Shown: piece by piece, positions 11,385 through 63,688 of the stretch | How the letters are laid out: the number at the start of each line of letters is the position of its first letter | Numbering within the stretch: position 1 is the first letter of the stretch | Origin: Firmicutes bacterium UBA5449 | Lineage (GTDB): Bacteria > Bacillota > SHA-98 > UBA4971 | DNA: 64,000 bases | Assembly: GCA_002424305.1 (NCBI GenBank) | Contig: DIQZ01000035.1 | Span: 226,335-290,334, forward strand | Direction: 5' to 3' | Position numbers and translations under genes: made by a program | The notes under the pieces: generated by a model | What the model saw: the letters and a program-made list of their open reading frames with translations, nothing else | What the model was told of the DNA's origin: nothing | Database searches by the model: none

Positions 11385-11700
11385 CAAACTACACCAATAA
11401 TAACAATCTCCCGTCCCCTGAAATCGGGACGGGAGACAATACTCTCGCGGTACCACCCAAATTGGCTGCCTGTGGCAGCCCGCTCATAGGCACAACAAAC
11501 CCAATCCACATCATACCAGGCTGGGAATGCCATACCTCTGTATCGGGAGGACCCGGCCGCGTCTACTCTCTTAGCCTGCCACAAAGGCGGGCCTTGGATT
11601 TCGCGTGGCCACTCCAGGGGGATCTTGGGTGCTCCTAAGCTCCGACTTACACCTGCCTCGGTTCGCTGTAACTCCCGGATGCAACCTACTCGTCCCTATC
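11385..11700 (-). promoter_or_regulatory. T-box riboswitch leader of ileS, with intrinsic terminator
   Basis: The minus-strand sense reads AAUUUGGGUGGUACCGCGAGAG, matching the T-box consensus. Immediately after it comes the hairpin CUCCCGUCCC-GAUUUCAG-GGGACGGGAG plus a U-rich tail. The leader sits upstream of ileS, which is classically T-box regulated in Firmicutes. Confidence 0.75.
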
Positions 11701-11759
11701 ATCGTCTCGATAACATATCTAATTTACCACATTAAGATGTGTAGCATTCTCGCTTACGC

Positions 11760-12253: not shown

Positions 12254-13009
12254 CTATTTCATAGCGCTTACCTGAATCATAGTAATGATTTTGGAGTCGT
12301 CAGCGCTGCCACTATAGGTTACCATTTCCGATGCGTCCAGCTTCACAATGCTCCCAAGAGCCAGATAGAACGTACCCGTAGAGACATACGTATAGTCTTG
12401 CTTGTTATCCTGACCCTTACCGACAATTTCGTAACCAATCTTGTATGCGTTGGCTGTCCCCCAAGGTTCCACTCCAAGAAACCGATATGCACGTTTCTCA
12501 AACGTCTGATCCCCGGTGGTTTTTGAGAAAAACGCATCATTCATAGTCCACGTATCCCCTGGTTCAACAGGATATTCAGGTAGGAGCGCCTGAGCCAGCC
12601 ACATAGTCTCAATACGCCGCCCGTCCCAAGGTTTGAGGCCTTTTACCCCGAGAATACGGCCTGTTTTATCAGTAGTCAAGTAGTATCCTGAAGGCTCCAA
12701 CCTCCTAATTTCTCCACCTACAGGAGTAACAGTGCCTACACACACAACAGCCCGTAAGGCCTTACCGTTTTCCACAGGCGTTTTCTGCACCTTGAAATCT
12801 TCTCTATAAAGATTTGTTATTCTTTGTCCGTCGAGGTATGAAGTTTCACTTATGAGAACCTGATACGTGTTGGTCTCATCTGATGAGGTATCAAACTCCA
12901 AAACGGTCTTAGGCGAATTCTCAGCAGAAACACTGCACCGTAAGATCAGTAAGTCTACTATGGTAATACACAAGACCAAGGACAAGCCCACAACGAACAT
13001 AGAATTCAT
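12254..13009 (-). CDS. Hypothetical exported protein
   Basis: Signal/TM MNSMFVVGLSLVLCITIVDLLIL followed by a soluble domain. No family was recognised. Confidence 0.55.
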   Translation of the reverse strand: MNSMFVVGLSLVLCITIVDLLILRCSVSAENSPKTVLEFDTSSDETNTYQVLISETSYLDGQRITNLYREDFKVQKTPVENGKALRAVVCVGTVTPVGGEIRRLEPSGYYLTTDKTGRILGVKGLKPWDGRRIETMWLAQALLPEYPVEPGDTWTMNDAFFSKTTGDQTFEKRAYRFLGVEPWGTANAYKIGYEIVGKGQDNKQDYTYVSTGTFYLALGSIVKLDASEMVTYSGSADDSKIITMIQVSAMK

Positions 13010-13261
13010 CCCTGCCCTCGTCTTATTTCGCCTTGATTGAGTGTTCCTGATATACGTGATAAGATCCACAAAGATGCCCCCTTTTATCGGGTGGCCCCAT
13101 TTCAGGTTTCAAGAAGCGAAATAAAACCTCAAGTAAACCCTTATGTGACCATATGCAGGATCCTCATTCTCGTACCCTTTATGCCTATAGATTATACAGT
13201 ACTTTCAGCAAAAATGAAGGTATTCCTACTTATCATAGGTGGCAGGTTCGGAGACTAATAT

Positions 13262-13305
13262 AGAAATGTCAGCGCTACGGCGTTTCTCATAGCGCTGACA
13301 TTTCC
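13262..13305. terminator. Hairpin with a 14-bp stem (AAATGTCAGCGCTA...TAGCGCTGACATTT) downstream of hydA. Probable operon terminator, possibly bidirectional.
   Basis: A perfect inverted repeat is seen directly. Its position is about 60-100 nt after the hydA stop. Confidence 0.5.
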
Positions 13306-13367: not shown

Positions 13368-15092
13368 TTAGACTCGGGATCGGGGAACATAGTGCGTGTG
13401 AAGAAGCTCATGAGACTTCTCCCCCAAAGGCTCCCCAAGAAACTCTTTGTATAGTTCTTGGACTTGGGGGTTCAGGTGAGATTTGCGAAGCGGCATATTC
13501 CTGTCTTCTTCATATATTGCGCTAATTCGCTTCAGTCTTGTCTCTCGGTCAGTTGGTATAGGCTGTCCGCCTCCACCGATACACCCGCCGGGACATGCCA
13601 TTATTTCAACAAAGTGATAATCAGCATCACCCTTAGAAATCCTTTCCAGAAGTTGCCTTGCATTCTTCAGTCCATTGGTAACTGCGACGTTAACCACAGT
13701 GCCATTTATGTCTACTTGTGCTTCCTTGCAGCCTTCAATACCCCTGACATCCTCAAAATCAATGTTCTCTAACTCACTGTCAGTGACTACTTCGTACACA
13801 GTCCTTAGGGCAGCTTCCATCACACCGCCTGACGCCCCGAAAATAACGGCTGCACCTGTCGACATACCAAGAGGATCATCGTAATCTTCAGCAGGCAACG
13901 ATGGGAAGTCAATCCCCGCCTCTCGTATCATCCGTCCAAGTTCTCTTGTTGTAAGAACAGCGTCTATATCAGGATAGCCACTGGATGTCATCTCCGGTCT
14001 CTTGGCTTCAAACTTCTTTGCAGTGCACGGCATTATGGATACAACGTAGATATCTTTCGGATCAATACCGGCTTTTTCTGCATAATAAGTCTTGGCAAGA
14101 GCGCCAAACATCTGCTGAGGTGACTTACATGTAGATACATGTGGGAGTAGGTCGGGAAAGAAATGCTCAATAAACTTAATCCAGCCCGGACTGCATGAAG
14201 TAATAAGAGGCAATACCCCTCCGGCCTTCAACCGCTCCAGCAGTTCATATCCTTCCTCCATAATAGTCAGGTCAGCCGTGAAGTCAGTATCAAAAACCTT
14301 ATCGAACCCAAGCCTTCTCAAGGCTGCCACCATTTGGCCTGTGACTCTCGAGCCGGCAGGCATACCCAGCTCTTCACCGATACTTGCTCTTACCGCAGGC
14401 GCAGTTTGAACCACCACATGCTTAGTGGGATCTGCTAACGCAGCCCAGACATATTCAGTGGCATCACTTTCTGTCAAAGCGCCTACAGGACATGCAAGAA
14501 CACACTGACCGCACATAGTGCAAACTGCTTCCATGAGATCATCAGCAAACGCAGGGCCGACCATTGTGTCAAACCCTCTGTCATTGGGCGCCAGCGCGCA
14601 CACTGATTGCGTATCCTGGCAAACACTTACGCATCGCCTGCAGAGGATACATTTGTTAGGATCTCTGACAATCGAGGGGCTTGAAGAATCTACGGGAAAC
14701 TTGTGTTTCTCTCCCTCATACTCGATCTCACGTATGTTGAACCTATCTGCAAGCGCCTGAAGCTCGCAGTTTCCACTTCGTTCGCAAGTCAGACACTCAT
14801 AAGGATGGTTAGATATGATAAGCTCCAGTACAGTCCTTCTGGCTTCACGCACAGCAGGAGTATTAGTCCTAACTACCATCCCGTCTGAGGCCGGAGCAAC
14901 ACATGCAGCTTGCAGAGATTTGGCTCCTTCCACTTCGACTACGCAAACCCGGCAGACTCCCACAACGTTAGTGTCTTTCAAGTAACAGAGAGTAGGTATA
15001 TCTACCCCGGCTGCATGCGCCGCATCAAGAATCGTTGAACCGGCGGGCACTTGAACCTTATTGCCATCTATAGTTACAGTAAGCATATCCAT
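13368..15092 (-). CDS. hydA: [FeFe] hydrogenase catalytic subunit HydA (group A, multi-cluster form)
   Basis: N-terminal 2Fe-2S ferredoxin fold, additional FeS cysteine clusters, and H-cluster motifs TSCSPGW, MPCTAKKFE and EIMACPGGCIGGGGQP. Confidence 0.9.
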   Translation of the reverse strand: MDMLTVTIDGNKVQVPAGSTILDAAHAAGVDIPTLCYLKDTNVVGVCRVCVVEVEGAKSLQAACVAPASDGMVVRTNTPAVREARRTVLELIISNHPYECLTCERSGNCELQALADRFNIREIEYEGEKHKFPVDSSSPSIVRDPNKCILCRRCVSVCQDTQSVCALAPNDRGFDTMVGPAFADDLMEAVCTMCGQCVLACPVGALTESDATEYVWAALADPTKHVVVQTAPAVRASIGEELGMPAGSRVTGQMVAALRRLGFDKVFDTDFTADLTIMEEGYELLERLKAGGVLPLITSCSPGWIKFIEHFFPDLLPHVSTCKSPQQMFGALAKTYYAEKAGIDPKDIYVVSIMPCTAKKFEAKRPEMTSSGYPDIDAVLTTRELGRMIREAGIDFPSLPAEDYDDPLGMSTGAAVIFGASGGVMEAALRTVYEVVTDSELENIDFEDVRGIEGCKEAQVDINGTVVNVAVTNGLKNARQLLERISKGDADYHFVEIMACPGGCIGGGGQPIPTDRETRLKRISAIYEEDRNMPLRKSHLNPQVQELYKEFLGEPLGEKSHELLHTHYVPRSRV

Positions 15093-15112: not shown

Positions 15113-18100
15113 TTAGTCCTTCACGTCGCACCGGAGACATCGCGAAGCTTCAAAAATTGCTTGAGGCTCACTGAACTTATCAACTACCTCATTGAAGTTG
15201 CCATGCCTCTGGTTTACCGGTAGCACACCTGGATGTTGCCTTGGCATCTGCTCCTCATGGATTTCTCCCACCTGTTCCCGACCAAGGTCAGGACTTACAG
15301 GGATCTCCCCGGTTCCGCCAAGGTACTTGCCAATTTCTATTGCAGCGCGTCTGCCGTCTGCAATCGCCTGAATTACAGTATCAGGCCCGTGCACACAGTC
15401 ACCGCCTGCAAATACGCCAGGTTCACCGGTGGTGAGAGTCCTTGTGTCTGTAACTATCGTAGACCATCTTGTAGTCTCAATCCCGGATCTGCCCGGTAGG
15501 AGAGACATATCCGGCCTCTGGCTTATGGCGGAAATAACCATATCTACATCAACAACAAAATTCGACGCTTCTACCTCGACAGGACGCCTCCGCCCGCTGC
15601 GGTCAAACTCACCTAAGGACATTCTGACACATTCCATGTTAGTGAGCTTGCCGTCTCTGCCTATCATTTTTGCCGGCACTGTCAGGAAGTGGATTTTGAT
15701 TCCTTCGCGTTCCGCCTCACTTATCTCCCCTTTGTCAGCAGGCATGTCTTCTCGCTGACGTCTGTATATAACGTGAACTTCACCCGAGCCAAGACGAAGA
15801 GCGGTTCTGGCGGCATCTATAGCAGCGTTACCTCCGCCTATGACTGCAACTTTCTTGCCAACCTTCGGGTTTTTGCCGAGGCTGACGTCTTGGAGAAACT
15901 CAACAGCGCCCACCACACCACACAAGTCCTCCCCCGGCACGCCAAGCTTCTGGCTTACGTTGGCTCCGACAGCAATGAGAATGGCTTTGTATCCGTCAGT
16001 CCTCAAGTCATCAATGGTAACATCTTTACCTACCGCAACCCCTGTACGTATCCGGACCCCGGTTCTCTCAATATAGTCGATTTCCGCACGTAGAATATCT
16101 TTGGGCAGTCTATATTCTGGGATTCCGATTAACAACATGCCACCCGGTTCCGGTAAGGCTTCAAATACTGTGACCTCATATCCCATCTGAGCCAAATAGT
16201 AAGCTGCGGTAAGGCCACAAGGACCTGAACCCACAATTGCCACCTTCGCATTTTTTATGACTTCAGGCTTCTCAACCGGGATTGGATTCAGGAGTTCATA
16301 GTCGGCAGCAAACCTCTTCAACTCGCATATAGCAAGGGCCTGATCAAGTTGAGCTCTTCTGCATTTACCTTCACACGGATGGGTGCAAACCCTACCACAC
16401 ACCGCAGGAAACGGATTCTTCTCTTTTATGAGCTTTACTGCCTCCTGATATCTCTTTTGTGTTATCAGGTTGATGTACCTCGGCACATCAACATCAGCAG
16501 GACATGCATTCTGGCAAGGGGACTCAAACAGAGTAGCGCATACAGAGGCCGGACACTTCCTGTCCCTGATATGAGCCTCGTACTCGTCCCTAAAATAGCG
16601 TATAGTGGTGAGGACAGGAGTCGGAGCTGTCTGACCTAAGCCACAGAGAGCCGTCTCTTTGATCCATGTTCCAAGCTTAATCAGACGCTCAATATCGCCT
16701 TCACGCCCCTCGCCCCGGGTGATTCTGGTTAGAATCTCCAGCATCCTCTTTGTGCCTATCCGACACGGGGCACACTTACCACAGGATTCATCCTGGGTAA
16801 ACTCTAAGAAGAACCTGGCAAGGTCAACCATACATGTGTCTTCATCCATGACAACGAGACCGCCGGACCCCATGATCGTACCGAGCTTTGTAAGGGACTC
16901 ATAATCCATGGGTGTGTTAAGAAATTCCGCAGGAACACATCCGCCTGAAGGTCCTCCGGTCTGCGCAGCCTTATACTTCTTGCCATCGGGGATTCCTCCG
17001 CCGATGTCGAAGACTACTTCTCCCAGAGGCGTCCCCATAGGGACTTCGACAAGGCCTGTATTGTTTATTTTGCCTGCAAGAGCAAATACTTTTGTGCCCT
17101 TACTCTTCTCAGTTCCGATGCCCGCAAACCACTCCGGGCCTCTTAGAATTATCTGGGGAATATTAGCGTAGGTCTCTACGTTGTTGAGAAGGGTCGGTCT
17201 CCCCCACAGCCCTTTGCTGGCAGGAAAAGGAGGCCTTGGCCTCGGCTCTCCGCGTCTTCCCTCCACTGAGGCAAGGAGAGCTGTCTCCTCACCGCATACA
17301 AAGGCACCTGCTCCAACCCTTATATCCATGTTAAACTCAAAGCCTTTGCCAAGAATATCCTTACCAAGAAGCCCATACTCTCTGGCCTGGCTTATAGCGT
17401 GGGTAAGATGAGCGACTGCCAAGGGATATTCAGCCCTGACATAGACGTACCCTTGATTTGCTCCGACAGTATACCCTGCAATTGCCATGGCCTCAATTAT
17501 GGCATGAGGATCTCCTTCGATTATGCTTCTGTCCATGAACGCGCCGGGGTCACCCTCGTCAGCATTACAAACCACATACTTTTTGTCTGACTTCGCTCGC
17601 CTGGTGAAGTCCCACTTCAAGCCGGTGGGGAACCCTGCTCCCCCTCTACCGCGAAGGCCTGCACTCTTTAGAACATTTATTACATCCTCCGGTGTCATTT
17701 CAGTGACGACCTTAGCAAGAGCTGCATACCCGTCTTCAGCTATGTACTCTTCAATATTCAAAGGGTCAATCTTACCCGTGTTGCGAAGAGCAACTCTAAC
17801 CTGTCTGCTGAAGAAGGTCATATCGGAATACGTAGGAACTTTTTGCCTTGTATCCGGAGTCACGTAGAGAAGCCTGTCAACAATTCTACCTTTAAGGAGG
17901 TGTTCCGTAACTATTGAACGGGCATCTTCCGGTTTTAGATTTCTGTAGAGAACCCCTTCCGGGTAGACAATAATGATAGGACCCAGCTCGCAAGGACCCA
18001 TGCACCCTGTAACAATAATTTTGATTTCGTCGGTGAGACCTTGCTTGGCGATTTCATCAGCAAGAGCCTGTTCAACATCTTTGCATCCTGACGAGGCGCA

Positions 18101-18145
18101 ACCTGCCCCGCCACAAACGAGAACATGTGTCCGATAGGCACCCAT
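15113..18145 (-). CDS. hydB: HydB-like NADH/FMN subunit (NuoF family) with an N-terminal NuoE-like 2Fe-2S domain. The C-terminus is fused to a GltD/NfnB-like FAD/NADPH oxidoreductase module.
   Basis: GLRGRGGAGFPTGLKW (NuoF SLBB/FMN site) and a CxxCxxC 4Fe-4S motif. The C-terminal half has CxxxCxxxCP...CGRVCTHPCEGKC plus two Rossmann motifs (VAIVGSGPCGLTAA and VAVIGGGNAAIDAA), typical of glutamate synthase small-chain homologs. The likely start is ATG at 18145 (RBS AAGGAGG). The ORF track extends to 18187. Confidence 0.85.
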   Translation of the reverse strand: MGAYRTHVLVCGGAGCASSGCKDVEQALADEIAKQGLTDEIKIIVTGCMGPCELGPIIIVYPEGVLYRNLKPEDARSIVTEHLLKGRIVDRLLYVTPDTRQKVPTYSDMTFFSRQVRVALRNTGKIDPLNIEEYIAEDGYAALAKVVTEMTPEDVINVLKSAGLRGRGGAGFPTGLKWDFTRRAKSDKKYVVCNADEGDPGAFMDRSIIEGDPHAIIEAMAIAGYTVGANQGYVYVRAEYPLAVAHLTHAISQAREYGLLGKDILGKGFEFNMDIRVGAGAFVCGEETALLASVEGRRGEPRPRPPFPASKGLWGRPTLLNNVETYANIPQIILRGPEWFAGIGTEKSKGTKVFALAGKINNTGLVEVPMGTPLGEVVFDIGGGIPDGKKYKAAQTGGPSGGCVPAEFLNTPMDYESLTKLGTIMGSGGLVVMDEDTCMVDLARFFLEFTQDESCGKCAPCRIGTKRMLEILTRITRGEGREGDIERLIKLGTWIKETALCGLGQTAPTPVLTTIRYFRDEYEAHIRDRKCPASVCATLFESPCQNACPADVDVPRYINLITQKRYQEAVKLIKEKNPFPAVCGRVCTHPCEGKCRRAQLDQALAICELKRFAADYELLNPIPVEKPEVIKNAKVAIVGSGPCGLTAAYYLAQMGYEVTVFEALPEPGGMLLIGIPEYRLPKDILRAEIDYIERTGVRIRTGVAVGKDVTIDDLRTDGYKAILIAVGANVSQKLGVPGEDLCGVVGAVEFLQDVSLGKNPKVGKKVAVIGGGNAAIDAARTALRLGSGEVHVIYRRQREDMPADKGEISEAEREGIKIHFLTVPAKMIGRDGKLTNMECVRMSLGEFDRSGRRRPVEVEASNFVVDVDMVISAISQRPDMSLLPGRSGIETTRWSTIVTDTRTLTTGEPGVFAGGDCVHGPDTVIQAIADGRRAAIEIGKYLGGTGEIPVSPDLGREQVGEIHEEQMPRQHPGVLPVNQRHGNFNEVVDKFSEPQAIFEASRCLRCDVKD

Positions 18146-18222: not shown

Positions 18223-18717
18223 TCACTCATACTTGTCCAAGATAACCTTTATCTGATCTGATTTAACCCTTGCATATATGTCCTCATTGACTCTGACAAC
18301 AGGTCCAAGACCGCAAGCCCCCATACACCTGACAATCTCCACTGAAAATCTCCCGTCATCGGTAGTGTCTTCCCCCTTGACCCCCAGGTCTTCTCCGAGT
18401 TTCTCCATGATGGCGTCAACACCCTTGACATAACATGCCGTTCCCTTGCAAACGCTGATAACGTTCCTCCCCTTAGGCTTTAACGAGAACAACGCGTAAA
18501 ATGTAACAACACTGTAAACCTCACTAAGAGGGATATCCAGTCCCTCAGCAATCATGACCTGGATTTCTCTGGGAAGATAACCTACTACCTGCTGGGCTTC
18601 ATGCAAGACTTGAATCAAGACACCGGATTTACCTTCATAATAGTCGATTATCTCCCTGACCTTCTCTCTCTGTTCATCGGTAATTTCGCCAATGCATGTA
18701 CACGTCTCACAAGCCAT
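18223..18717 (-). CDS. hydC: HydC, NuoE-like thioredoxin-fold [2Fe-2S] subunit
   Basis: CKGTACYVKG...CMGACGLGPV motifs. 164 aa. RBS AGGAGGAATAGG. Confidence 0.85.
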   Translation of the reverse strand: MACETCTCIGEITDEQREKVREIIDYYEGKSGVLIQVLHEAQQVVGYLPREIQVMIAEGLDIPLSEVYSVVTFYALFSLKPKGRNVISVCKGTACYVKGVDAIMEKLGEDLGVKGEDTTDDGRFSVEIVRCMGACGLGPVVRVNEDIYARVKSDQIKVILDKYE

Positions 18718-18792
18718 ATACCTATTCCTCCTTACCGATCCTCAACCGTAAGTGGGGGCTGCATTCACTACCGAAAACTATAACCTATGTAT

Positions 18793-18808
18793 TGCAACAA
18801 TCATGCCA
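18793..18808 (-). promoter_or_regulatory. Sigma-54 (-24/-12) promoter TGGCATGATTGTTGCA upstream of hydC
   Basis: The reverse complement of 18793-18808 reads TGGCAT-N5-TTGCA, with exact GG-N10-GC spacing. It lies about 75 nt upstream of the hydC ATG. The adjacent gene encodes a sigma-54 activator. Confidence 0.6.
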
Positions 18809-19127
18809 CTCTACATGGCATTAGGAATATTGTCGTCAAACCCTTGTGAAAGACGTCACAAAGTCAATTATCATCCATGCAAAAGAGACAAACTCAACCT
18901 CAGGTTAATGCACTATTGCATTATTCTTGTAGAATTTTCCACCATATGCGCAAGTTTACTACTTTTGGGAGAACTCTATTCCATATTGAATTTAGATGCT
19001 TATTGTTTGTTTTGGCTTGAAGCTGGAAAAGGAGGTTGTCTTGGTCCGTTTACATCTTGACGACATAACACAGAGCCCACGAAAACGGCATAGAATGCAA
19101 GGTTGCATTGCTTAATGCCAACGCGCA

Positions 19128-20456
19128 TTAAGTGGTATACTTTTTAATCTTCCTAACAACAGTGGATTGATTGACTCCGAGGGCTTCCGCCATGTCATAG
19201 GTGGTTTCATGCTTCTCTTGCGCGTGCTTGATTATCTGCCTCTCAACCTCTTCCACAGCCTCGCGCAGAGGCATTATGCCTTTCACTATTACGTTGAGAG
19301 AACCTGTGTCAGCCTCACCTTTGACATATGCCGGCAGATCCTCTACAGAGATCTCCTCTCCTTCTAACGTAACTATAAGTCGTTCCATCAGATTTTCCAA
19401 TTCTCGAACGTTTCCGGGCCAAGAGTACCGTGTCAGGCTCTCTCTTGCTTCCCTGGAAATCGTTTTGTTGTAGCCGTGGGCGCTATTGTGTTTTGCCAGG
19501 AAGTGATATATGAGGGGAATAACGTCATCCCGTCTGTTTCTCAGTGGTGGGATGACTATTGGTACTACGTTTAATCTGTAGAAGAGGTCAGCACGGAACT
19601 CGCCTTTTTCCACCATTCCTGCCAGATCTCTGTTGGTGGCTGCAATTATTCTGATATCAACCTCAATAGGCTGAATCCCGCCAACCCGCGTCAGACGACG
19701 TTCCTGAATCACTTGAAGAAGCTTTACTTGAAGATCAAGAGGAAGATCAGATATCTCATCAAGGAAGAGAGTTCCCAAAGACGCAATCTCTATCATCCCG
19801 GGTTTGCCATCCCGCTTTGCGCCGGTGAACGCGCCTGCTTCGTAACCGAACAGCTCAGATTCAAGAAGGTTTTGAGGAATAGCCCCGCAGTTTATAGTGA
19901 TAAAGGGAGCGTTCCGGCGAAGACTTGCATTATGAATAAATCGCGCGACAACCTCCTTACCCACACCTGATTCACCTAGAATAAGAACGGTACTGGTCAC
20001 CTGCGCTACCTTACCCGCCAAGTGCAACACTCGTCCCATTTCTACGCTGTAGGCGATGATAGCATTGGAAGGAGATTCATGCATCTTGCCATCCCCCGCA
20101 GATTCCCAGGACAGGAGTTCTCGAGCAGTTCTCGTAATACAGTCCTTGCTCACCCCGGGAAGAGCGCGAGCAAAAGCCTGATCAAGATCGCGTGAAACAG
20201 GCCCTCCTGAAGCCAATGCCCAAAGGACTGCCTTCACATTATCTGAAAGCCTCAAAGCGACCTCAGGACATACCCTAAAACACTCTCCGCATCCATCACA
20301 GCGGGACGGGTCTATGATAATCTTGTCTCTTACGAAAGATATGGCATCAACAAGGCATCTTGGAATACAAGAACCACACCTTGTACACTTGTTGTCGTCG
20401 ACAAAGACAAATCCGGGCAATTGGCTCCCTCCCCCACAAGCGGCGTTATACAGCAC
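19128..20456 (-). CDS. Sigma-54-dependent transcriptional activator with an N-terminal 2x[4Fe-4S] ferredoxin domain
   Basis: CTRCGSCIPRC and CDGCGECFRVCP ferredoxin motifs. AAA+ domain with GESGVGKE Walker A and the GAFTGA sigma-54 contact motif. C-terminal Fis-type HTH. Confidence 0.85.
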   Translation of the reverse strand: MLYNAACGGGSQLPGFVFVDDNKCTRCGSCIPRCLVDAISFVRDKIIIDPSRCDGCGECFRVCPEVALRLSDNVKAVLWALASGGPVSRDLDQAFARALPGVSKDCITRTARELLSWESAGDGKMHESPSNAIIAYSVEMGRVLHLAGKVAQVTSTVLILGESGVGKEVVARFIHNASLRRNAPFITINCGAIPQNLLESELFGYEAGAFTGAKRDGKPGMIEIASLGTLFLDEISDLPLDLQVKLLQVIQERRLTRVGGIQPIEVDIRIIAATNRDLAGMVEKGEFRADLFYRLNVVPIVIPPLRNRRDDVIPLIYHFLAKHNSAHGYNKTISREARESLTRYSWPGNVRELENLMERLIVTLEGEEISVEDLPAYVKGEADTGSLNVIVKGIMPLREAVEEVERQIIKHAQEKHETTYDMAEALGVNQSTVVRKIKKYTT

Positions 20457-28081: not shown

Positions 28082-28156
28082 GCGCCTATAGCTCAGGGGA
28101 TAGAGCACCGGCCTCCGGAGCCGGGAGCGCAGGTTCAAGTCCTGCTAGGCGCACCA
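28082..28156 (+). tRNA. tRNA-Arg (anticodon CCG)
   Basis: 75 nt. Acceptor stem GCGCCTA/TAGGCGC, D-loop AGCTCAGGGGATAGAGC, anticodon stem CCGGC/GCCGG with loop CUCCGGA, T-arm GGTTCAAGTCC, and an encoded CCA. Confidence 0.9.
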
Positions 28157-28329: not shown

Positions 28330-29148
28330 ATGCATACCAGAATAAGAGTGATGGCTATAGACAATAGCATAGATGTCTGCGAGATGCTCAGGGATCTTGT
28401 CAAGAGCGATCCTGCATTGGAATGGGTCGGCTATGTCGAGGACGGACTTCTGGCCCTTGATAGAATCGGCAAATGGAAGCCTGATGTAATTCTCCTTGAT
28501 ATCATCATGCCGCAACTTGATGGAGTTGCCTTTCTTGAACAGCTAATTGAGATGTGCCCCATCAACAAACCAAAGATAATTGTCCTAAGCGCAGTCGGAG
28601 ATCAAGCTCTTATCCGAAGTCTTGCTCAACTAGGAGTTGACTACTACCTTCTCAAGCCGGTTGACGCCTCTATTCTCATTAACAGAATCAAGCAAGTCGT
28701 ACGAGAACGTGATTCTAAATCCGGCGAAACTTCAAGCTGTATACAACGGAAACCACCGGACAAGGATACAGAAACGCATGTGGCTCGACTCCTTTTCCAG
28801 CTTGACGTGCCTACCCATTTTAAAGGTTACCTATATCTCAAGGACGCGATTTCTATGATCATTGAAGAAACCGGTCTCTATACACCAGTCACCACTACCC
28901 TTTACATGGAGATAGCCAATAAACACGGCACTACACCTTCTGTAGTAGAAGCCGCTGTCAGGTACGCTATTCAACAAACCTGGAAAAGGGGGAATCTTAA
29001 GCGACTTAAGAAGCTCTTTGGTGCTTTCTCAGACTTAGATGAAGATCGAATGCCCACTAACTCTTTATTCATGACAAGAGTAGCTGAAGAAATCAAAGTC
29101 AGCTTAGCCGATTCACGTAAACACTATGTGTATAAGGAAACTATCTGA
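28330..29148 (+). CDS. spo0A: Stage 0 sporulation protein A (response regulator)
   Basis: Receiver domain with the phosphoacceptor LDIIMPQLDG and the conserved Lys. The Spo0A-specific C-terminal DNA-binding domain is present (HFKGYLYLKDAI..., AVRYAIQQTWKRGN). Confidence 0.9.
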   Translation: MHTRIRVMAIDNSIDVCEMLRDLVKSDPALEWVGYVEDGLLALDRIGKWKPDVILLDIIMPQLDGVAFLEQLIEMCPINKPKIIVLSAVGDQALIRSLAQLGVDYYLLKPVDASILINRIKQVVRERDSKSGETSSCIQRKPPDKDTETHVARLLFQLDVPTHFKGYLYLKDAISMIIEETGLYTPVTTTLYMEIANKHGTTPSVVEAAVRYAIQQTWKRGNLKRLKKLFGAFSDLDEDRMPTNSLFMTRVAEEIKVSLADSRKHYVYKETI

Positions 29149-35879: not shown

Positions 35880-36851
35880 TTAATCATGAGACCCCGGATG
35901 CATAATGTCCAGAAGCACCTCAAGGCCTTGAACCAACCTGGGACCGGGACGGGTTAGGATATCAGGATTTACTCGGTGAATCCTCCGTGTCTTGCAGGCA
36001 GAAATCCCTTTCCAAGCAGATCTTCCAAGCACATCATCCTTATCTGTCCATACCGTAATTATCACATCCGGATCCCTTTCAATGACTACCTCTACACTGA
36101 ATTCAGGCCATTCCAAACCTGCGTCACCTGCGATGTTTTCCCCGCCTGCAACCTTAATAAGCTCATCAATAAAAGTACCGGGTCCCGCAGTCATTAAGGG
36201 GTCATCCCATATCTCCACAAATACTCGTGGTCTGGCTTGTTTCGTCACGGCCAAAGCTGCCTTTGATCGCACACCTTGAATCTCATTGCTGAGGCTCTGC
36301 ACAAGCAATTCCGCTGCGTCCTCTGTTCCGGTTGCCTTACCTACCAAAACAATGCTATCTAAGACATCTCTGAGTGTCTTCGGATCCAGTGCCAGAACAG
36401 GTATGCCAAGATTAGACAGGGTTTCAATAACAGGCAACTGCATGCTTCCAACTGCGACCACGAGATCCGGAGATATCTCCATTATCTTCTCAATATTCAT
36501 CTCTACTTGGCCGACCTTAGGTTTTGACTTCGCCTCCTTGGGGTAATCACATGCCTCTGTAACACCGACAACTCTGTCACCTAGACCCAGAGCGAACAGA
36601 ATCTCCGTGTTACTTGGCGCAATAGACACGATGGTCTCAATGGGAAGTTCCAATTTCACCTCCCTGCCCAAGGCATCTATGACTGTGACTTCACCCTCTG
36701 TGACATTTGCCGAGACCCCCATGGCCAAGATGCAAAATGCAGCAATGATAATGCCAAAAATCATGACTTGTGAGAGCGCAGTCCGCATCCGAAAACCTAA
36801 GTGGCTCACATATTGCTTACGACCCACACTACGACACTGCTTACGATCCAC
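35880..36851 (-). CDS. btuF: Periplasmic binding protein, BtuF/FhuD class (cobalamin/siderophore)
   Basis: Signal peptide (MRTALSQVMIFGIIIAAFCILAMG if the start is at 36788) and a class III binding-protein fold. The track start at 36851 is a GTG inside a 21-nt tandem repeat, so the true start is uncertain. Confidence 0.7.
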   Translation of the reverse strand: MDRKQCRSVGRKQYVSHLGFRMRTALSQVMIFGIIIAAFCILAMGVSANVTEGEVTVIDALGREVKLELPIETIVSIAPSNTEILFALGLGDRVVGVTEACDYPKEAKSKPKVGQVEMNIEKIMEISPDLVVAVGSMQLPVIETLSNLGIPVLALDPKTLRDVLDSIVLVGKATGTEDAAELLVQSLSNEIQGVRSKAALAVTKQARPRVFVEIWDDPLMTAGPGTFIDELIKVAGGENIAGDAGLEWPEFSVEVVIERDPDVIITVWTDKDDVLGRSAWKGISACKTRRIHRVNPDILTRPGPRLVQGLEVLLDIMHPGSHD

Positions 36852-36949: not shown

Positions 36950-37195
36950 CCAAAATAAGCTTTTGGCTTGAAACTCCCTTTCACCGAAGGCGTACCAAGC
37001 TACCCTAGACAGGCAGGTCTCCTGGCTTCCGAATCATTGCATGCTCCTAAGCCTTCCTCACATTGAGTGGCTAAATAAGGATGCTCCTCGGATACAGTGG
37101 CGGGAACCGCGGGATTGCAGGATATCGCCTGCTTCCTCTTCCCTATTCTCCCCTAATAGGGGCACCTGTCGGGTCTCAGATTAAATTTTGCAACA
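36950..37195 (-). promoter_or_regulatory. Cobalamin (AdoCbl) riboswitch aptamer
   Basis: B12 box GCCACUG is present (reverse complement of cagtggc at 37096-37102) in the context GCGGUUCCCGCCACUGU. An upstream GGGAA element is present. It sits 5' of the btuFCD-cobO operon. Confidence 0.75.

Positions 37196-63282: not shown

Positions 63283-63688
<406 letters not shown>

What the first reader, a model, noticed from the sequence alone, without database searches (positions are those of the whole stretch)
18718..20456. Hydrogenase operon is driven by a textbook sigma-54 promoter and an activator carrying a 2x[4Fe-4S] ferredoxin sensor domain
On the minus strand, 18808-18793 reads TGGCAT-N5-TTGCA, with exact GG-N10-GC spacing, about 75 nt upstream of hydC. 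The divergently placed neighbour encodes a bEBP: GAFTGA, Walker A/B and a Fis HTH. Its N-terminus is a bacterial-type ferredoxin with two CxxCxxCxxxCP motifs, rather than a GAF, PAS or receiver domain. This suggests direct redox or Fe-S based sensing, for example of ferredoxin or H2 redox state, controlling hydrogenase expression. Two adjacent palindromes (ATGCAA-GG-TTGCAT at 19095-19108 and CTTAATGC-N6-GCATTAAG at 19111-19132) are candidate enhancer (UAS) sites.
Basis: partly seen in the sequence, partly recalled or inferred. Interest (0 to 1): 0.6.

Follow-up and report, generated by a model that had tools for sequence, protein, structure and literature searches.

The report
Iron-sulfur sigma-54 activator controlling a hydrogenase operon
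An uncultured fermentative spore-former appears to switch on a three-gene [FeFe]-hydrogenase operon through a sigma-54 promoter and a dedicated activator, whose sensor is a small two-cluster ferredoxin domain that looks like what remains of a hydrogen-sensing hydrogenase still present in related regulators.

Summary
The sequence features are real. It lies upstream of hydC on the same (minus) strand.

TGGCATGATTGTTGCA (18808-18793) is a good sigma-54 -24/-12 element 75 nt before hydC. The regulator (20420-19128) is a 2x[4Fe-4S] ferredoxin domain, a roughly 60-aa linker, a sigma-54 AAA+ domain with GAFTGA, and an HTH.

The two palindromes belong to a set of three RATGC-N6-GCATY sites. These are the only three in 64 kb. 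I also found a Rex-type operator (TTGTGAC-N4-TTTCACAA, 18861-18844) between the third site and the promoter.

In 13 related loci (regulator identity 50-87%) the layout recurs: regulator, then a site pair at its stop codon, then a third site, then -24/-12, then hydC-hydB(NuoF+GltD fusion)-hydA. A Rex-like box recurs in 10 of the 13 and in the window. Positional orthologues carry Fer4+H-cluster domain+FeS, Fer4+H-domain, Fer4+FeS, or Fer4 alone. The window protein therefore looks like a sensory-hydrogenase activator that lost its H2-activating domain.

Still inferred: sigma-54 dependence (rpoN could not be checked), site occupancy, and the signal sensed. I favour cluster redox state.

Verdict: new variant of a known kind; interest about 0.6.

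The parts
19128..20420 (-). Gene for the sigma-54 activator (bEBP), 430 aa from TTG 20420. An alternative GTG start at 20456 would give 442 aa. The TAA stop is at 19130-19128.
   Evidence: ORF and translation. Pfam. Identical public protein P0001 (430 aa). The GGAGGG Shine-Dalgarno before TTG and the majority start in homologues.
20253..20414 (-). N-terminal clostridial-type 2x[4Fe-4S] ferredoxin domain (residues 3-56). The motifs are CTRCGSCIPRC and CDGCGECFRVCP.
   Evidence: Fer4, Fer4_10, Fer4_7 and Fer4_9 hits above their cut-offs. C12, C15, C18, C22, C41, C44, C47 and C51 are invariant in 14 homologues at 51-87% identity. The domain aligns to the F-cluster domain of [FeFe] hydrogenases.
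20067..20252 (-). Linker of about 60 aa (residues 57-118), predicted as three helices. It is probably a vestige of the N-terminal edge of an H-cluster domain.
   Evidence: Linker-only hhalign against hydrogenase-type activators aligns to the segment right after their Fer4 domain: score 27.1, P=0.002, against at most 14.6 in 20 column shuffles. Among the 150 best of 1.8 billion representatives, the five whose listed match stretch reached past the ferredoxin domain were checked with Pfam; only P0248, a Fer4+Fe_hyd_lg_C+FeS protein, is a hydrogenase that aligns in order from the ferredoxin into the H-domain. AF2 gives pLDDT of about 80 for this segment, but the overall model is poor.
19557..20057 (-). 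Sigma-54 interaction AAA+ domain with Walker A GESGVGKE, GAFTGA (19835-19818) and Walker B LFLDE.
   Evidence: PF00158 at 6.3e-69. GAFTGA is invariant. The best PDB relatives are NtrC1, FleQ, ZraR and PspF.
19137..19274 (-). C-terminal Fis-type HTH (…GVNQSTVVRKIKKY).
   Evidence: HTH_50 at 3e-13 and HTH_8 at 1.7e-5. The segment is invariant in the family.
19114..19129 (.). Enhancer site 1 (UAS1), AATGCCAACGCGCATT, overlapping the regulator's stop codon. It lies at about -339 from the predicted start site.
   Evidence: A site overlaps or directly follows the stop codon in 9 of 13 related loci (window-like L001-L005, and L018, L020, L025, L026) and lies 40-70 bp after it in L019, L028 and L029; arms conserved, spacer variable.
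19094..19109 (.). Enhancer site 2 (UAS2), AATGCAAGGTTGCATT, 20 bp (two helical turns) from UAS1. It lies at about -319.
   Evidence: Spacing to site 1 is 19-20 bp in 12 of 13 related loci.
18907..18922 (.). Enhancer site 3 (UAS3), AATGCACTATTGCATT. Its start is 114 bp upstream of the start of the -24 element (about -132).
   Evidence: The same 114-115 bp offset occurs in L001-L005 and L018; the offset is 68-135 bp in more distant loci.
18844..18861 (.). Rex-type operator TTGTGACGTCTTTCACAA, centred at about -70 between UAS3 and the promoter.
   Evidence: One mismatch to TTGTGAANNNNTTCACAA, and the only match in the window with up to 2 mismatches. It is nearly invariant in the 6-sequence alignment. 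It is a perfect match in L020 and L028. In L019 and L029 a second copy abuts -24. The consensus is taken from PMC2883068 and PMC6391272.
18793..18808 (-). Sigma-54 promoter: -24 TGGCAT, -12 TTGCA. The predicted start site is near 18782, giving a 5' UTR of about 65 nt.
   Evidence: GG and GC are invariant and the spacer varies in 13 related loci. The start site position is inferred from the motif only.
18727..18733 (-). Shine-Dalgarno sequence AAGGAGG of hydC.
   Evidence: conserved block GGTAAGGAGGAAT.
18223..18717 (-). hydC, a NuoE-like [2Fe-2S] thioredoxin-like subunit.
   Evidence: PF01257 at 3.7e-50. NCBIfam NuoE/HoxE models.
15113..18145 (-). hydB, a NuoF-like flavoprotein (residues 1-541) fused to a GltD-like NADP(H)/FAD module (residues 542-1010).
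   Evidence: Pfam Complex1_51K, NADH_4Fe-4S, Fer4_20 and Pyr_redox_2. In the PDB the halves match HydB 7q4v_B and StnC 8oh5_C / NfnA 9n5u_A.
13368..15092 (-). hydA, the [FeFe]-hydrogenase catalytic subunit.
   Evidence: Fe_hyd_lg_C at 2.8e-105 and Fe_hyd_SSU. NF040763, 'NADH-dependent [FeFe] hydrogenase, group A6', at 942 bits against a 765 cut-off. E=7e-217 to the solved HydA1 7q4v_A.
13263..13304 (-). An 18-bp hairpin 60 nt after the hydA stop. It is the probable end of the operon.
   Evidence: Fold energy of -30.2 kcal/mol, z = -6.6. The U-tract is weak, so calling it a terminator is an inference.

Best explanation
hydC-hydB-hydA encodes a HydABC-type [FeFe] hydrogenase whose HydB carries an extra GltD-like NADP(H) module. 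I propose it is transcribed from a sigma-54 promoter at 18808-18793.

Proposed steps:
1. Sigma-54 RNA polymerase forms a closed complex at the promoter.
2. The complex is opened by the activator encoded immediately upstream on the same strand.
3. The activator binds as dimers to three RATGC-N6-GCATY palindromes: a pair 20 bp apart at its own stop codon, and one about 130 bp upstream of the start site. Three dimers could make one AAA+ hexamer, which reaches the promoter by DNA looping.
4. The activator's ATPase is gated by its N-terminal 2x[4Fe-4S] ferredoxin domain.

That ferredoxin domain is the only sensor element retained from a sensory [FeFe]-hydrogenase module (Fer4 + H-cluster domain + C-terminal FeS) that positional orthologues still carry upstream of the same operon. 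Having lost the H2-activating domain, the window protein most likely reports the redox state of its clusters, set by the reduced-ferredoxin or low-potential electron pool.

A Rex-type operator at about -70 adds NADH/NAD+ control. Expression would then respond to both kinds of reducing equivalents that such a hydrogenase handles.

Shown here: the motifs, the domains, their conservation and the synteny.
Inferred: sigma-54 dependence in vivo, occupancy of the sites, the signal, and the sign of regulation.
For: Motifs in the window:
- The promoter motif is exact, and it is the only intergenic, correctly oriented match in 64 kb.
- No sigma-70-like promoter lies on the sense strand of the intergenic region.
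- All three RATGC-N6-GCATY sites of the window fall within 223 bp (18907-19129) of this 410-bp region (0.15-0.41 expected per window).

Conservation:
- Across 11 loci, 30 such sites lie in 4.35 kb of regulator-hydC spacers. Only 2 lie in the other 205.6 kb, and both are just upstream of regulator genes.
- In the 6-sequence alignment the site arms, the Rex-like box, -24/-12 and the Shine-Dalgarno sequence form invariant blocks in otherwise 72%-identical DNA.
- The same layout holds down to 50% regulator identity and for every sensor architecture.
- Moorella naiadis, whose regulator is a hydrogenase-type activator, has TGGCATGAAATTTGCA and AATGCACCATTGCATT upstream of its hydrogenase cluster.

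The protein:
- Eight Cys and GAFTGA are invariant.
- The two apparently ferredoxin-less homologues are start-codon miscalls.

Descent from a sensory hydrogenase:
- The Fer4-only clade is monophyletic (200/200 bootstraps). It groups with the Fer4+FeS and H-domain activators, at 60-62% support.
- The linker retains weak collinear similarity to the start of the H-domain.
- The H-domain orthologues keep the four H-cluster cysteines but lack the proton-relay cysteine, as sensory hydrogenases do (that this is a sensory feature is from my memory).

Literature:
- Hydrogenase-like sigma-54 regulators next to hydrogenase genes were noted in 2005 (PMC1287953).
- Fer4, Fe_hyd_lg_C and FeS were listed as sensor domains of Clostridiales activators (PMC6615313).
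- In TamHydS, H2 reduces an N-terminal cluster but not the C-terminal one (PMC13104023).
Against: - Their presence in the genome is unverified.
- There is no transcription start or expression data.
- The HTH sequence GVNQSTVVRK is shared with many PAS-type activators, so DNA specificity is not proven to belong to this regulator.
- Tree support for the deeper nodes is only 60-62%, and the linker homology is weak (P=0.002).
- The AF2 model was poor (pLDDT 57.8), so there is no structural support.
- The N-terminal domain on its own is indistinguishable from generic ferredoxins in a search of 1.8 billion representative proteins.
- The Rex-like box is degenerate or displaced in the H-domain loci L025 and L026. 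It also fits a TGTGA-N6-TCACA CRP/FNR-type site.
- UAS1 and UAS2 lie unusually far (about 320-340 bp) from the promoter.
Confidence: 0.58

Rival explanations
1. The ferredoxin domain senses cluster integrity rather than redox poise. Oxygen, reactive species or iron/sulfur shortage would destroy the clusters and inactivate (or activate) the regulator. The oxygen-sensitive, iron-rich hydrogenase would then be made only when clusters can be built and kept, as with FNR or IscR.
For: The eight Cys are invariant. The operon encodes a very Fe-S-rich, O2-sensitive enzyme. Fe-S bEBPs that lose activity on oxidation exist, for example OrpR (PMC8359166). Nothing in the sequence distinguishes reversible redox sensing from cluster loss.
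Against: The domain descends from electron-relay F-clusters of hydrogenases. In TamHydS these clusters are reversibly reduced by H2 (PMC13104023). The organism appears to be a strict fermenter from digesters, where O2 is a rare signal.
Confidence: 0.2
2. The regulator still reports H2, but in trans. A separately encoded sensory hydrogenase, or HydABC itself, would pass electrons to the regulator's ferredoxin domain. The deleted H-domain would thus have been replaced by a protein partner.
For: Orthologues carry the H-domain in cis upstream of the same operon. Ferredoxin domains are natural electron acceptors of hydrogenases.
Against: No second hydrogenase-like gene lies within about 8-10 kb in any Fer4-only locus. 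The rest of the genomes could not be searched.
Confidence: 0.1
3. The ferredoxin domain is an evolutionary leftover with no sensing role. The activator would be constitutively active, like PspF, and the real control would come from the Rex-type repressor or from regulator abundance.
For: There is a clear trend of sensor loss in the family: H-domain, then FeS, then one member (P0035) with a single Cys motif. A conserved Rex-like operator sits between enhancer and promoter.
Against: All 8 Cys are invariant over 51-87% identity. Every properly delimited family member keeps the domain, including the two miscalled ones. A useless 55-aa Fe-S domain should decay.
Confidence: 0.08
4. The -24/-12 match is fortuitous. 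hydCBA would be transcribed by the housekeeping sigma factor or by read-through from the regulator gene, and the bEBP would regulate something else.
For: Loose sigma-54-like motifs also occur in coding DNA of this window. rpoN is unverified. There is no terminator between the regulator gene and hydC.
Against: GG/GC are invariant with a variable spacer in 13 loci, down to 50% regulator identity. There is no sense-strand sigma-70-like promoter in the spacer. The regulator-operon pairing is strictly conserved. GAFTGA, the sigma-54 contact loop, is invariant.
Confidence: 0.04

Closest known systems
Hydrogenase-domain sigma-54 activators (e.g. CHY1547 of Carboxydothermus hydrogenoformans; homologues in Moorella and Geobacter). 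These were noted from genomes and have not been characterised in the literature I could search.
   Same: Same AAA+ and HTH core, an N-terminal 2x[4Fe-4S] domain, and a position next to hydrogenase genes. Members P0046 and P0052 sit upstream of the very same hydC-hydB(GltD)-hydA operon with the same enhancer and promoter layout.
   Different: The window protein lacks the H-cluster domain (PF02906) and the C-terminal Cx2Cx4Cx16C FeS motif (PF04060). It therefore cannot activate H2 itself.
Putative sensory [FeFe] hydrogenases of groups C and D (TmHydS, TamHydS)
   Same: The regulator's ferredoxin domain corresponds to their N-terminal F-cluster domain, and its linker to the first stretch of their H-domain.
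   Different: Those are stand-alone or PAS-linked enzymes with unknown outputs. Here only the F-cluster part remains, and it is fused to a transcriptional output domain.
Fe-S-containing sigma-54 activators: OrpR of Desulfovibrio vulgaris (Fe-S in a PAS domain) and rhizobial NifA (from memory)
   Same: An Fe-S cluster in the sensor part of a bEBP gates sigma-54 transcription according to redox conditions (PMC8359166).
   Different: The cluster-binding module is different: a complete clostridial-type dicluster ferredoxin rather than a PAS domain or an interdomain Cys motif. The target is also different.
FhlA/HyfR (E. coli) and HoxA with the HoxBC-HoxJ H2 sensor (Cupriavidus), from established knowledge
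   Same: Hydrogenase operons driven by sigma-54 promoters and dedicated NtrC-family activators. In the Hox system a regulatory hydrogenase supplies the signal.
   Different: Those control [NiFe] enzymes, and they sense formate through GAF domains or H2 through a separate sensor plus phosphorelay.
Rex (NADH/NAD+-sensing repressor) regulons that include hydrogenases in Clostridia and Caldicellulosiruptor
   Same: The operator matches TTGTGAANNNNTTCACAA with one mismatch, and perfectly in L020 and L028, upstream of an [FeFe]-hydrogenase operon.
   Different: Here it lies inside a sigma-54 enhancer-promoter region (centre about -70, or abutting -24 in L019 and L029) rather than over a sigma-A promoter. 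No rex gene was seen.
NorR three-enhancer architecture (E. coli norVW)
   Same: Three palindromic enhancer sites for one bEBP, suggesting hexamer assembly from three dimers (PMC2831303, listed).
   Different: The NorR sites are clustered. Here two are adjacent and the third is 187 bp away.

Membership tests
Bacterial enhancer-binding protein (sigma-54 activator) | AAA+ sigma-54 interaction domain with Walker A/B | tested here: met
   PF00158 at 6.3e-69, residues 134-300 of the 442-aa form. GESGVGKE and LFLDE are present.
Bacterial enhancer-binding protein (sigma-54 activator) | GAFTGA loop that contacts sigma-54 | tested here: met
   GAFTGA at 19835-19818, invariant in 14 homologues.
Bacterial enhancer-binding protein (sigma-54 activator) | C-terminal DNA-binding HTH and cognate upstream enhancer sites | tested here: met
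   HTH_50 and HTH_8 hits. Three conserved palindromes are enriched more than 300-fold in the regulator-hydC spacers. Actual binding was not tested.
Bacterial enhancer-binding protein (sigma-54 activator) | Target promoter of the -24 GG / -12 GC type | tested here: met
   TGGCAT-N5-TTGCA at 18808-18793, conserved in 13 loci.
Bacterial enhancer-binding protein (sigma-54 activator) | rpoN (sigma-54) present in the genome | not testable with these tools
   No RpoN-box ORF in the window or in 458 kb of related loci.
Clostridial-type 2x[4Fe-4S] ferredoxin domain | Two CxxCxxCxxxC(P) motifs in a fold of about 55 aa | tested here: met
   CTRCGSCIPRC(L) and CDGCGECFRVC(P). Fer4, Fer4_7, Fer4_9 and Fer4_10 score above their cut-offs. 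All 8 Cys are invariant.
Clostridial-type 2x[4Fe-4S] ferredoxin domain | Actually binds two [4Fe-4S] clusters | not testable with these tools
   This needs protein chemistry (UV-vis, EPR, iron and sulfide content).
Sensory [FeFe]-hydrogenase-type sigma-54 activator (Fer4 + H-domain + FeS + AAA+) | H-cluster domain (PF02906) with the four cluster cysteines | tested here: not met
   No PF02906 hit in the window protein. Only a linker of about 60 aa with weak similarity to the start of the H-domain remains. Orthologues P0046, P0052 and P0056 do have the domain.
Sensory [FeFe]-hydrogenase-type sigma-54 activator (Fer4 + H-domain + FeS + AAA+) | C-terminal Cx2Cx4Cx16C FeS motif (PF04060) | tested here: not met
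   Absent in the window protein. Present in P0039-41, P0046 and P0056.
Sensory [FeFe]-hydrogenase-type sigma-54 activator (Fer4 + H-domain + FeS + AAA+) | Common descent or positional orthology with H-domain members | tested here: met
   Same downstream operon and the same enhancer/promoter layout. The AAA+ tree groups them, though the deeper nodes have only 60-62% bootstrap support.
Rex operator | 18-bp palindrome TTGTGAANNNNTTCACAA in a promoter region | tested here: met
   TTGTGACGTCTTTCACAA has 1 mismatch and is conserved. It is a perfect match in L020 and L028. A CRP/FNR-type reading is not excluded.
Rex operator | rex gene present and NADH-sensitive binding | not testable with these tools
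   No Rex-like ORF in the window or the held loci.
HydABC-type (NuoE/NuoF-linked) [FeFe] hydrogenase | HydA with H-cluster motifs plus NuoE-like and NuoF-like subunits in one operon | tested here: met
   HydA passes NF040763 (942 bits against a 765 cut-off). L2 and L3 are canonical, and L1 reads TSCSPGW as in the solved 7q4v_A.
HydABC-type (NuoE/NuoF-linked) [FeFe] hydrogenase | HydB C-terminal 2x[4Fe-4S] ferredoxin-like domain, as in the solved HydB chains 7q4v_B and 8a6t_B (attributed from memory to A. woodii and T. kivui) | tested here: not met
   It is replaced by a GltD-like FAD/NADP(H) module homologous to StnC/NfnA residues of about 100-570.

The most novel reading that the evidence does not exclude
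These regulators form a natural domain-deletion series: Fer4-H-FeS, Fer4-H, Fer4-FeS and Fer4 alone. All sit upstream of the same hydrogenase operon with the same enhancers. This would imply that the N-terminal F-clusters, not the H-cluster or the C-terminal cluster, are the element that transmits the signal in 'sensory' [FeFe] hydrogenases. In the window lineage, an H2 sensor would have been converted into a ferredoxin-pool redox sensor. Together with Rex, it would form a two-input gate (low-potential electrons AND NADH), matched to the substrates of a confurcating hydrogenase.
Probability: 0.3. Interest if true: 0.8.

Novelty: new variant of a known kind. Interest (0 to 1): 0.6.

Why it matters
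What group C/D 'sensory' [FeFe] hydrogenases actually do, and how they signal, is still open. A 2026 study (PMC13104023) argues against the C-terminal cluster as the signalling element.

This family offers what that field lacks:
- a defined output, namely a sigma-54 promoter with three mapped enhancer sites in front of a hydrogenase operon;
- natural variants that lack the H-domain, the C-terminal cluster, or both. These point to the N-terminal ferredoxin clusters as the part coupled to the output.

It also predicts:
- a first regulon and DNA motif for the Fer4/Fe_hyd_lg_C class of Clostridial activators, which Nie et al. (2019) listed but did not assign;
- a combination of a sigma-54 activator with a Rex-type operator;
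- an uncharacterised HydABC variant whose HydB carries the NADP(H) module of Stn/Nfn-type transhydrogenases.

All of this concerns uncultured digester Firmicutes and rests on comparative sequence analysis only.

Tried and rejected
- **HydA inactive or Stn-like?** I first suspected the operon was a Stn-type transhydrogenase, or that HydA was inactive, because L1 reads TSCSPGW. I rejected this. The solved HydA1 7q4v_A has the same motif, and HydA passes the NCBIfam group A6 model.
- **Other sigma-54 promoters.** I checked the three other sigma-54-like matches in the window. All are inside coding sequence. The one in hydB is conserved only because it encodes GKKVAV.
- **UAS1 as a terminator.** The terminator-like hit covering UAS1 is on the plus strand, antisense to both genes. 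On the sense strand no U-run follows it.
- **A riboswitch in the hydC leader.** No Rfam family matches there.
- **Ferredoxin-less relatives as evidence that the sensor is dispensable.** P0038 and P0042 proved to be start-codon miscalls.
- **N-terminal 125 aa against 1.8 billion representative proteins.** The hits were swamped by generic ferredoxins and were uninformative, apart from P0248.
- **AlphaFold2 on a 14-sequence alignment.** Mean pLDDT was 57.8, too poor for a fold search, so none was run.
- **rpoN, rex or crp/fnr genes.** I searched the window and all held loci and found none.
- **First bootstrap attempt.** It timed out and was redone.
- **Literature.** Searches found no experimental study of hydrogenase-type sigma-54 activators.


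Full report
**1. What is in the sequence**

All the genes concerned lie on the minus strand and point the same way:
- two ABC exporter genes (24288-20494);
- the regulator (20420/20456-19128);
- a 410-bp spacer;
- hydC (18717-18223);
- hydB (18145-15113);
- hydA (15092-13368);
- a strong hairpin (13304-13263; -30.2 kcal/mol, z = -6.6).

That is wrong: it is a tandem upstream neighbour.

The promoter motif is exactly where it was reported. On the minus strand, 18808-18793 reads TGGCATGATTGTTGCA, and 75 nt separate it from the hydC ATG. The loose pattern TGGCA-N6-TTGCW occurs four times in the window against 0.31 expected. The other three matches are inside coding sequence. A simple scan finds no sigma-70-like promoter on the sense strand of the spacer.

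**2. The regulator**

Pfam gives four elements:
- a Fer4 dicluster domain (several Fer4 models above their cut-offs);
- Sigma54_activat (6e-69);
- AAA_lid_14;
- HTH_50/HTH_8.

GAFTGA, Walker A and Walker B are present. The two cysteine motifs are CTRCGSCIPRC-L and CDGCGECFRVC-P, so only the second ends in CP in this protein.

The likelier start is TTG 20420. It is preceded by GGAGGG, it matches the identical public protein P0001 (430 aa), and it is the majority start in homologues.

No NCBIfam equivalog model comes near its cut-off; the best is PrdR at 362 bits against 795. No solved bEBP structure has such an N-terminus.

**3. Enhancer sites and a second operator**

They are 20 bp apart, and the first overlaps the regulator's TAA stop. 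A third site lies at 18907-18922. These are the only three in the window, even with the degenerate pattern RATGC-N6-GCATY (0.15-0.41 expected).

Between the third site and the promoter lies TTGTGACGTCTTTCACAA (18861-18844). It has one mismatch to the Rex operator consensus TTGTGAANNNNTTCACAA. It is the only match in the window with up to two mismatches. The consensus comes from PMC2883068 and PMC6391272.

**4. Comparative evidence**

The window comes from an uncultured spore-forming Firmicute found in fermentation and biogas metagenomes. I collected 13 related loci beyond exact copies of the window.

In five loci with regulators 78-81% identical, the spacer DNA is only 72% identical overall. 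Even so, the arms of the three palindromes, the Rex-like box, the GG and GC of the promoter and the Shine-Dalgarno sequence form invariant blocks. The palindrome spacers and the promoter spacer vary. The third site starts 114-115 bp before the -24 element in seven loci.

The layout persists down to 50% regulator identity, in L018, L019, L020, L027, L028 and L029. Over 11 loci, 30 palindromes fall in 4.35 kb of regulator-hydC spacer. Only 2 fall in the remaining 205.6 kb, and both lie 35-45 bp upstream of a regulator gene.

The Rex-like box is a perfect consensus in L020 and L028. In the high-GC loci L019 and L029, a second copy abuts the -24 element.

**5. The sensor domain is a remnant of a sensory hydrogenase**

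The homologue search showed three groups:
- Fer4-only activators (P0001-P0032);
- Fer4 + FeS (PF04060) activators (P0039-41);
- 700-770-aa proteins in which a Fer4 domain and an [FeFe]-hydrogenase H-cluster domain (PF02906), with or without FeS, precede the same AAA+/HTH core.

P0046 (Fer4-H-FeS) and P0052 (Fer4-H) sit immediately upstream of the same hydC-hydB(NuoF+GltD)-hydA operon. They have the same site pair at the stop codon, a third site, and a -24/-12 element. P0039, P0041 and P0042 (Fer4-FeS) show the same arrangement.

So four sensor combinations serve one operon type, and the ferredoxin domain is the only constant sensor part. The H-domains keep the cysteines of motifs L1-L3, but the proton-relay cysteine is replaced. 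From memory, that replacement is typical of sensory hydrogenases.

A neighbour-joining tree of the AAA+/HTH core gives these results:
- the Fer4-only clade is monophyletic (200/200 bootstraps);
- it joins Fer4-FeS members with 62% support;
- it joins the H-domain group with 60% support.

The roughly 60-aa linker of the window protein aligns, on its own, to the segment directly after the ferredoxin domain of the H-domain activators. The hhalign score is 27.1 (P=0.002), against at most 14.6 in 20 shuffles and 10.9 for the reversed sequence.

In a search of 1.8 billion representatives with the N-terminal 125 residues, I checked with Pfam the five listed proteins whose match stretch ran past the ferredoxin domain; only P0248, a Fer4+Fe_hyd_lg_C+FeS protein, is a hydrogenase that aligns in order from the ferredoxin into the H-domain. 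All other hits were generic ferredoxin domains.

Two relatives that seemed to lack the ferredoxin domain (P0038, P0042) are start-codon miscalls. The in-frame upstream DNA encodes it. All eight cysteines are invariant in 14 sequences.

Loss of the H-domain, and then of FeS, from a fused sensory hydrogenase is therefore the most economical history. The direction is not proven.

**6. Most likely mechanism**

Shown here: the motifs, the domains, their conservation and the synteny.

Inferred:
- Sigma-54 RNA polymerase binds at 18808-18793, giving a start site near 18782.
- The activator binds as dimers to the three palindromes, at about -339, -319 and -132. It assembles into a hexamer and reaches the promoter by looping. 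NorR, with three enhancers, is a precedent.
- The ferredoxin domain gates the ATPase according to the redox state of its clusters.
- A Rex-type repressor at about -70 (or at -24 in some relatives) adds NADH/NAD+ control.

The window protein has no H-cluster domain, so it cannot activate H2. It most likely reads the low-potential electron pool (reduced ferredoxin), either directly or through a partner.

In TamHydS, H2 reduces the H-cluster and an N-terminal cluster but not the C-terminal one, and the signalling route is still unknown (PMC13104023). This fits the idea that the N-terminal clusters are the element coupled to the output.

**7. What is not established**

- rpoN and rex could not be looked for in the genome. 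Neither is in the window or in 458 kb of held loci.
- There are no transcript data.
- The HTH sequence is shared with many PAS-type activators.
- The Rex-like box also fits a TGTGA-N6-TCACA CRP/FNR-type site, and it is degenerate in L025 and L026.
- The AF2 model was too poor to use.
- The sign of regulation and the signal are inferences.

**8. Comparison with what is known**

- A sigma-54 regulator with a hydrogenase-like sensor next to hydrogenase genes was pointed out in the C. hydrogenoformans genome paper (CHY1547; PMC1287953).
- Fer4, Fe_hyd_lg_C and FeS were listed among sensor domains of Clostridiales activators.
- Fe-S-dependent bEBPs exist, for example OrpR (PMC8359166).
- Sigma-54-driven hydrogenase operons are classical (FhlA, HoxA; established knowledge).
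- I found no experimental work on this family.

The window protein is a bEBP by every sequence criterion. It fails the defining H-domain test for a hydrogenase-type activator. It is best filed as a reduced variant of that kind.

**9. Verdict**

The system is a new variant of a known kind.

Its value lies in two things. It provides a defined transcriptional output, and a natural deletion series, for the unresolved question of how sensory [FeFe] hydrogenases signal. It also predicts a combination of a sigma-54 activator with Rex on a hydrogenase whose HydB is fused to an NADP(H) module. Interest 0.6.

Noticed in passing
window 15113-18145 (-): HydB is a fusion. Residues 1-541 match NuoF-like HydB (best PDB 7q4v_B, 7t2r_B). 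Residues 542-1010 match the GltD-like FAD/NADP(H) module of StnC (8oh5_C), 9bov_A and NfnA (9n5u_A). This module replaces the usual C-terminal ferredoxin domain. The fusion is conserved in all related loci that extend far enough to include hydB. It looks like an uncharacterised hybrid of an electron-bifurcating hydrogenase and a Stn/Nfn-type transhydrogenase.
   Followed up: partly
window 14190-14210 (-), HydA residues ~297-303: The H-cluster motif L1 reads TSCSPGW instead of the canonical TSCCPGW. The position that normally ligates the cluster is Ser. The same motif occurs in the solved HydA1 chain 7q4v_A, so it is probably not a defect. The sensory-type H-domains of the related regulators have the opposite pattern (xCP).
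   Followed up: partly
window 15845-15860 (-): A second sigma-54-like motif, TGGCAAGAAAGTTGCA, lies inside hydB, about 750 nt before hydA. It is conserved in L001 and L003, but it encodes GKKVAV of the Rossmann fold, so the conservation is probably due to coding.
   Followed up: partly
window 19021-19030: A short conserved block, TTnnCnAGCT, sits in the otherwise variable stretch between enhancer sites 2 and 3. It is invariant in six aligned loci and has no explanation so far.
   Followed up: no
L019 7639-7673 and L029 7769-7803: In the high-GC relatives, a second Rex-like box (TTGTGCCATCGTTCACAA and TTGTGACGCGGTTCACAA) ends 1-2 bp before the GG of the -24 element. That position would directly block sigma-54 polymerase binding.
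   Followed up: partly
L025 7956-7971 and L026 7966-7981: One extra RATGC-N6-GCATY palindrome lies 35-45 bp upstream of the start of the H-domain-type regulator genes, which suggests autoregulation. No such site precedes the regulator in the window.
   Followed up: no
L028 5560-6000 and L029 5760-6000: The public gene calls P0042 (327 aa) and P0038 (402 aa) start too late. The in-frame upstream DNA encodes the Fer4 domain (with FeS in L028; with the linker in L029). The deposited proteins therefore look, wrongly, like sensor-less activators.
   Followed up: yes
window 11422-11711 (-): A T-box leader (Rfam RF00230, 94.6 bits) lies upstream of the isoleucyl-tRNA synthetase gene (11371-8189).
   Followed up: yes
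window 36995-37184 (-): A cobalamin riboswitch (RF00174, 88.3 bits) lies upstream of a BtuF-like binding protein, a FecCD permease, an ABC ATPase and a CobO adenosyltransferase cluster. The sigma-54-like match at 36741-36756 lies in the signal peptide of the first gene and is a chance match.
   Followed up: yes
window 12254-13069 (-): A 271-aa (or 251-aa) predicted secreted protein has no Pfam or NCBIfam hit. A gene without Pfam hits occupies the same position after hydA in L019, L020, L022 and L027; homology between them was not tested. It is separated from hydA by the strong hairpin, so it is probably not part of the operon.
   Followed up: no
L020 2642-3097, L027 10434-10901, L028 8033-8515: Loci with Fer4+FeS regulators carry an extra gene of about 150-160 aa, with no Pfam hit, between hydC and hydB. 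It is absent from the Fer4-only and H-domain loci.
   Followed up: no
window 63289-63683 (-) and 28082-28153 (+): RNase P RNA (class A, 293.8 bits) and a tRNA gene. Spo0A (28330-29148) and YpeB (30561-29170) mark the organism as a spore-former.
   Followed up: yes
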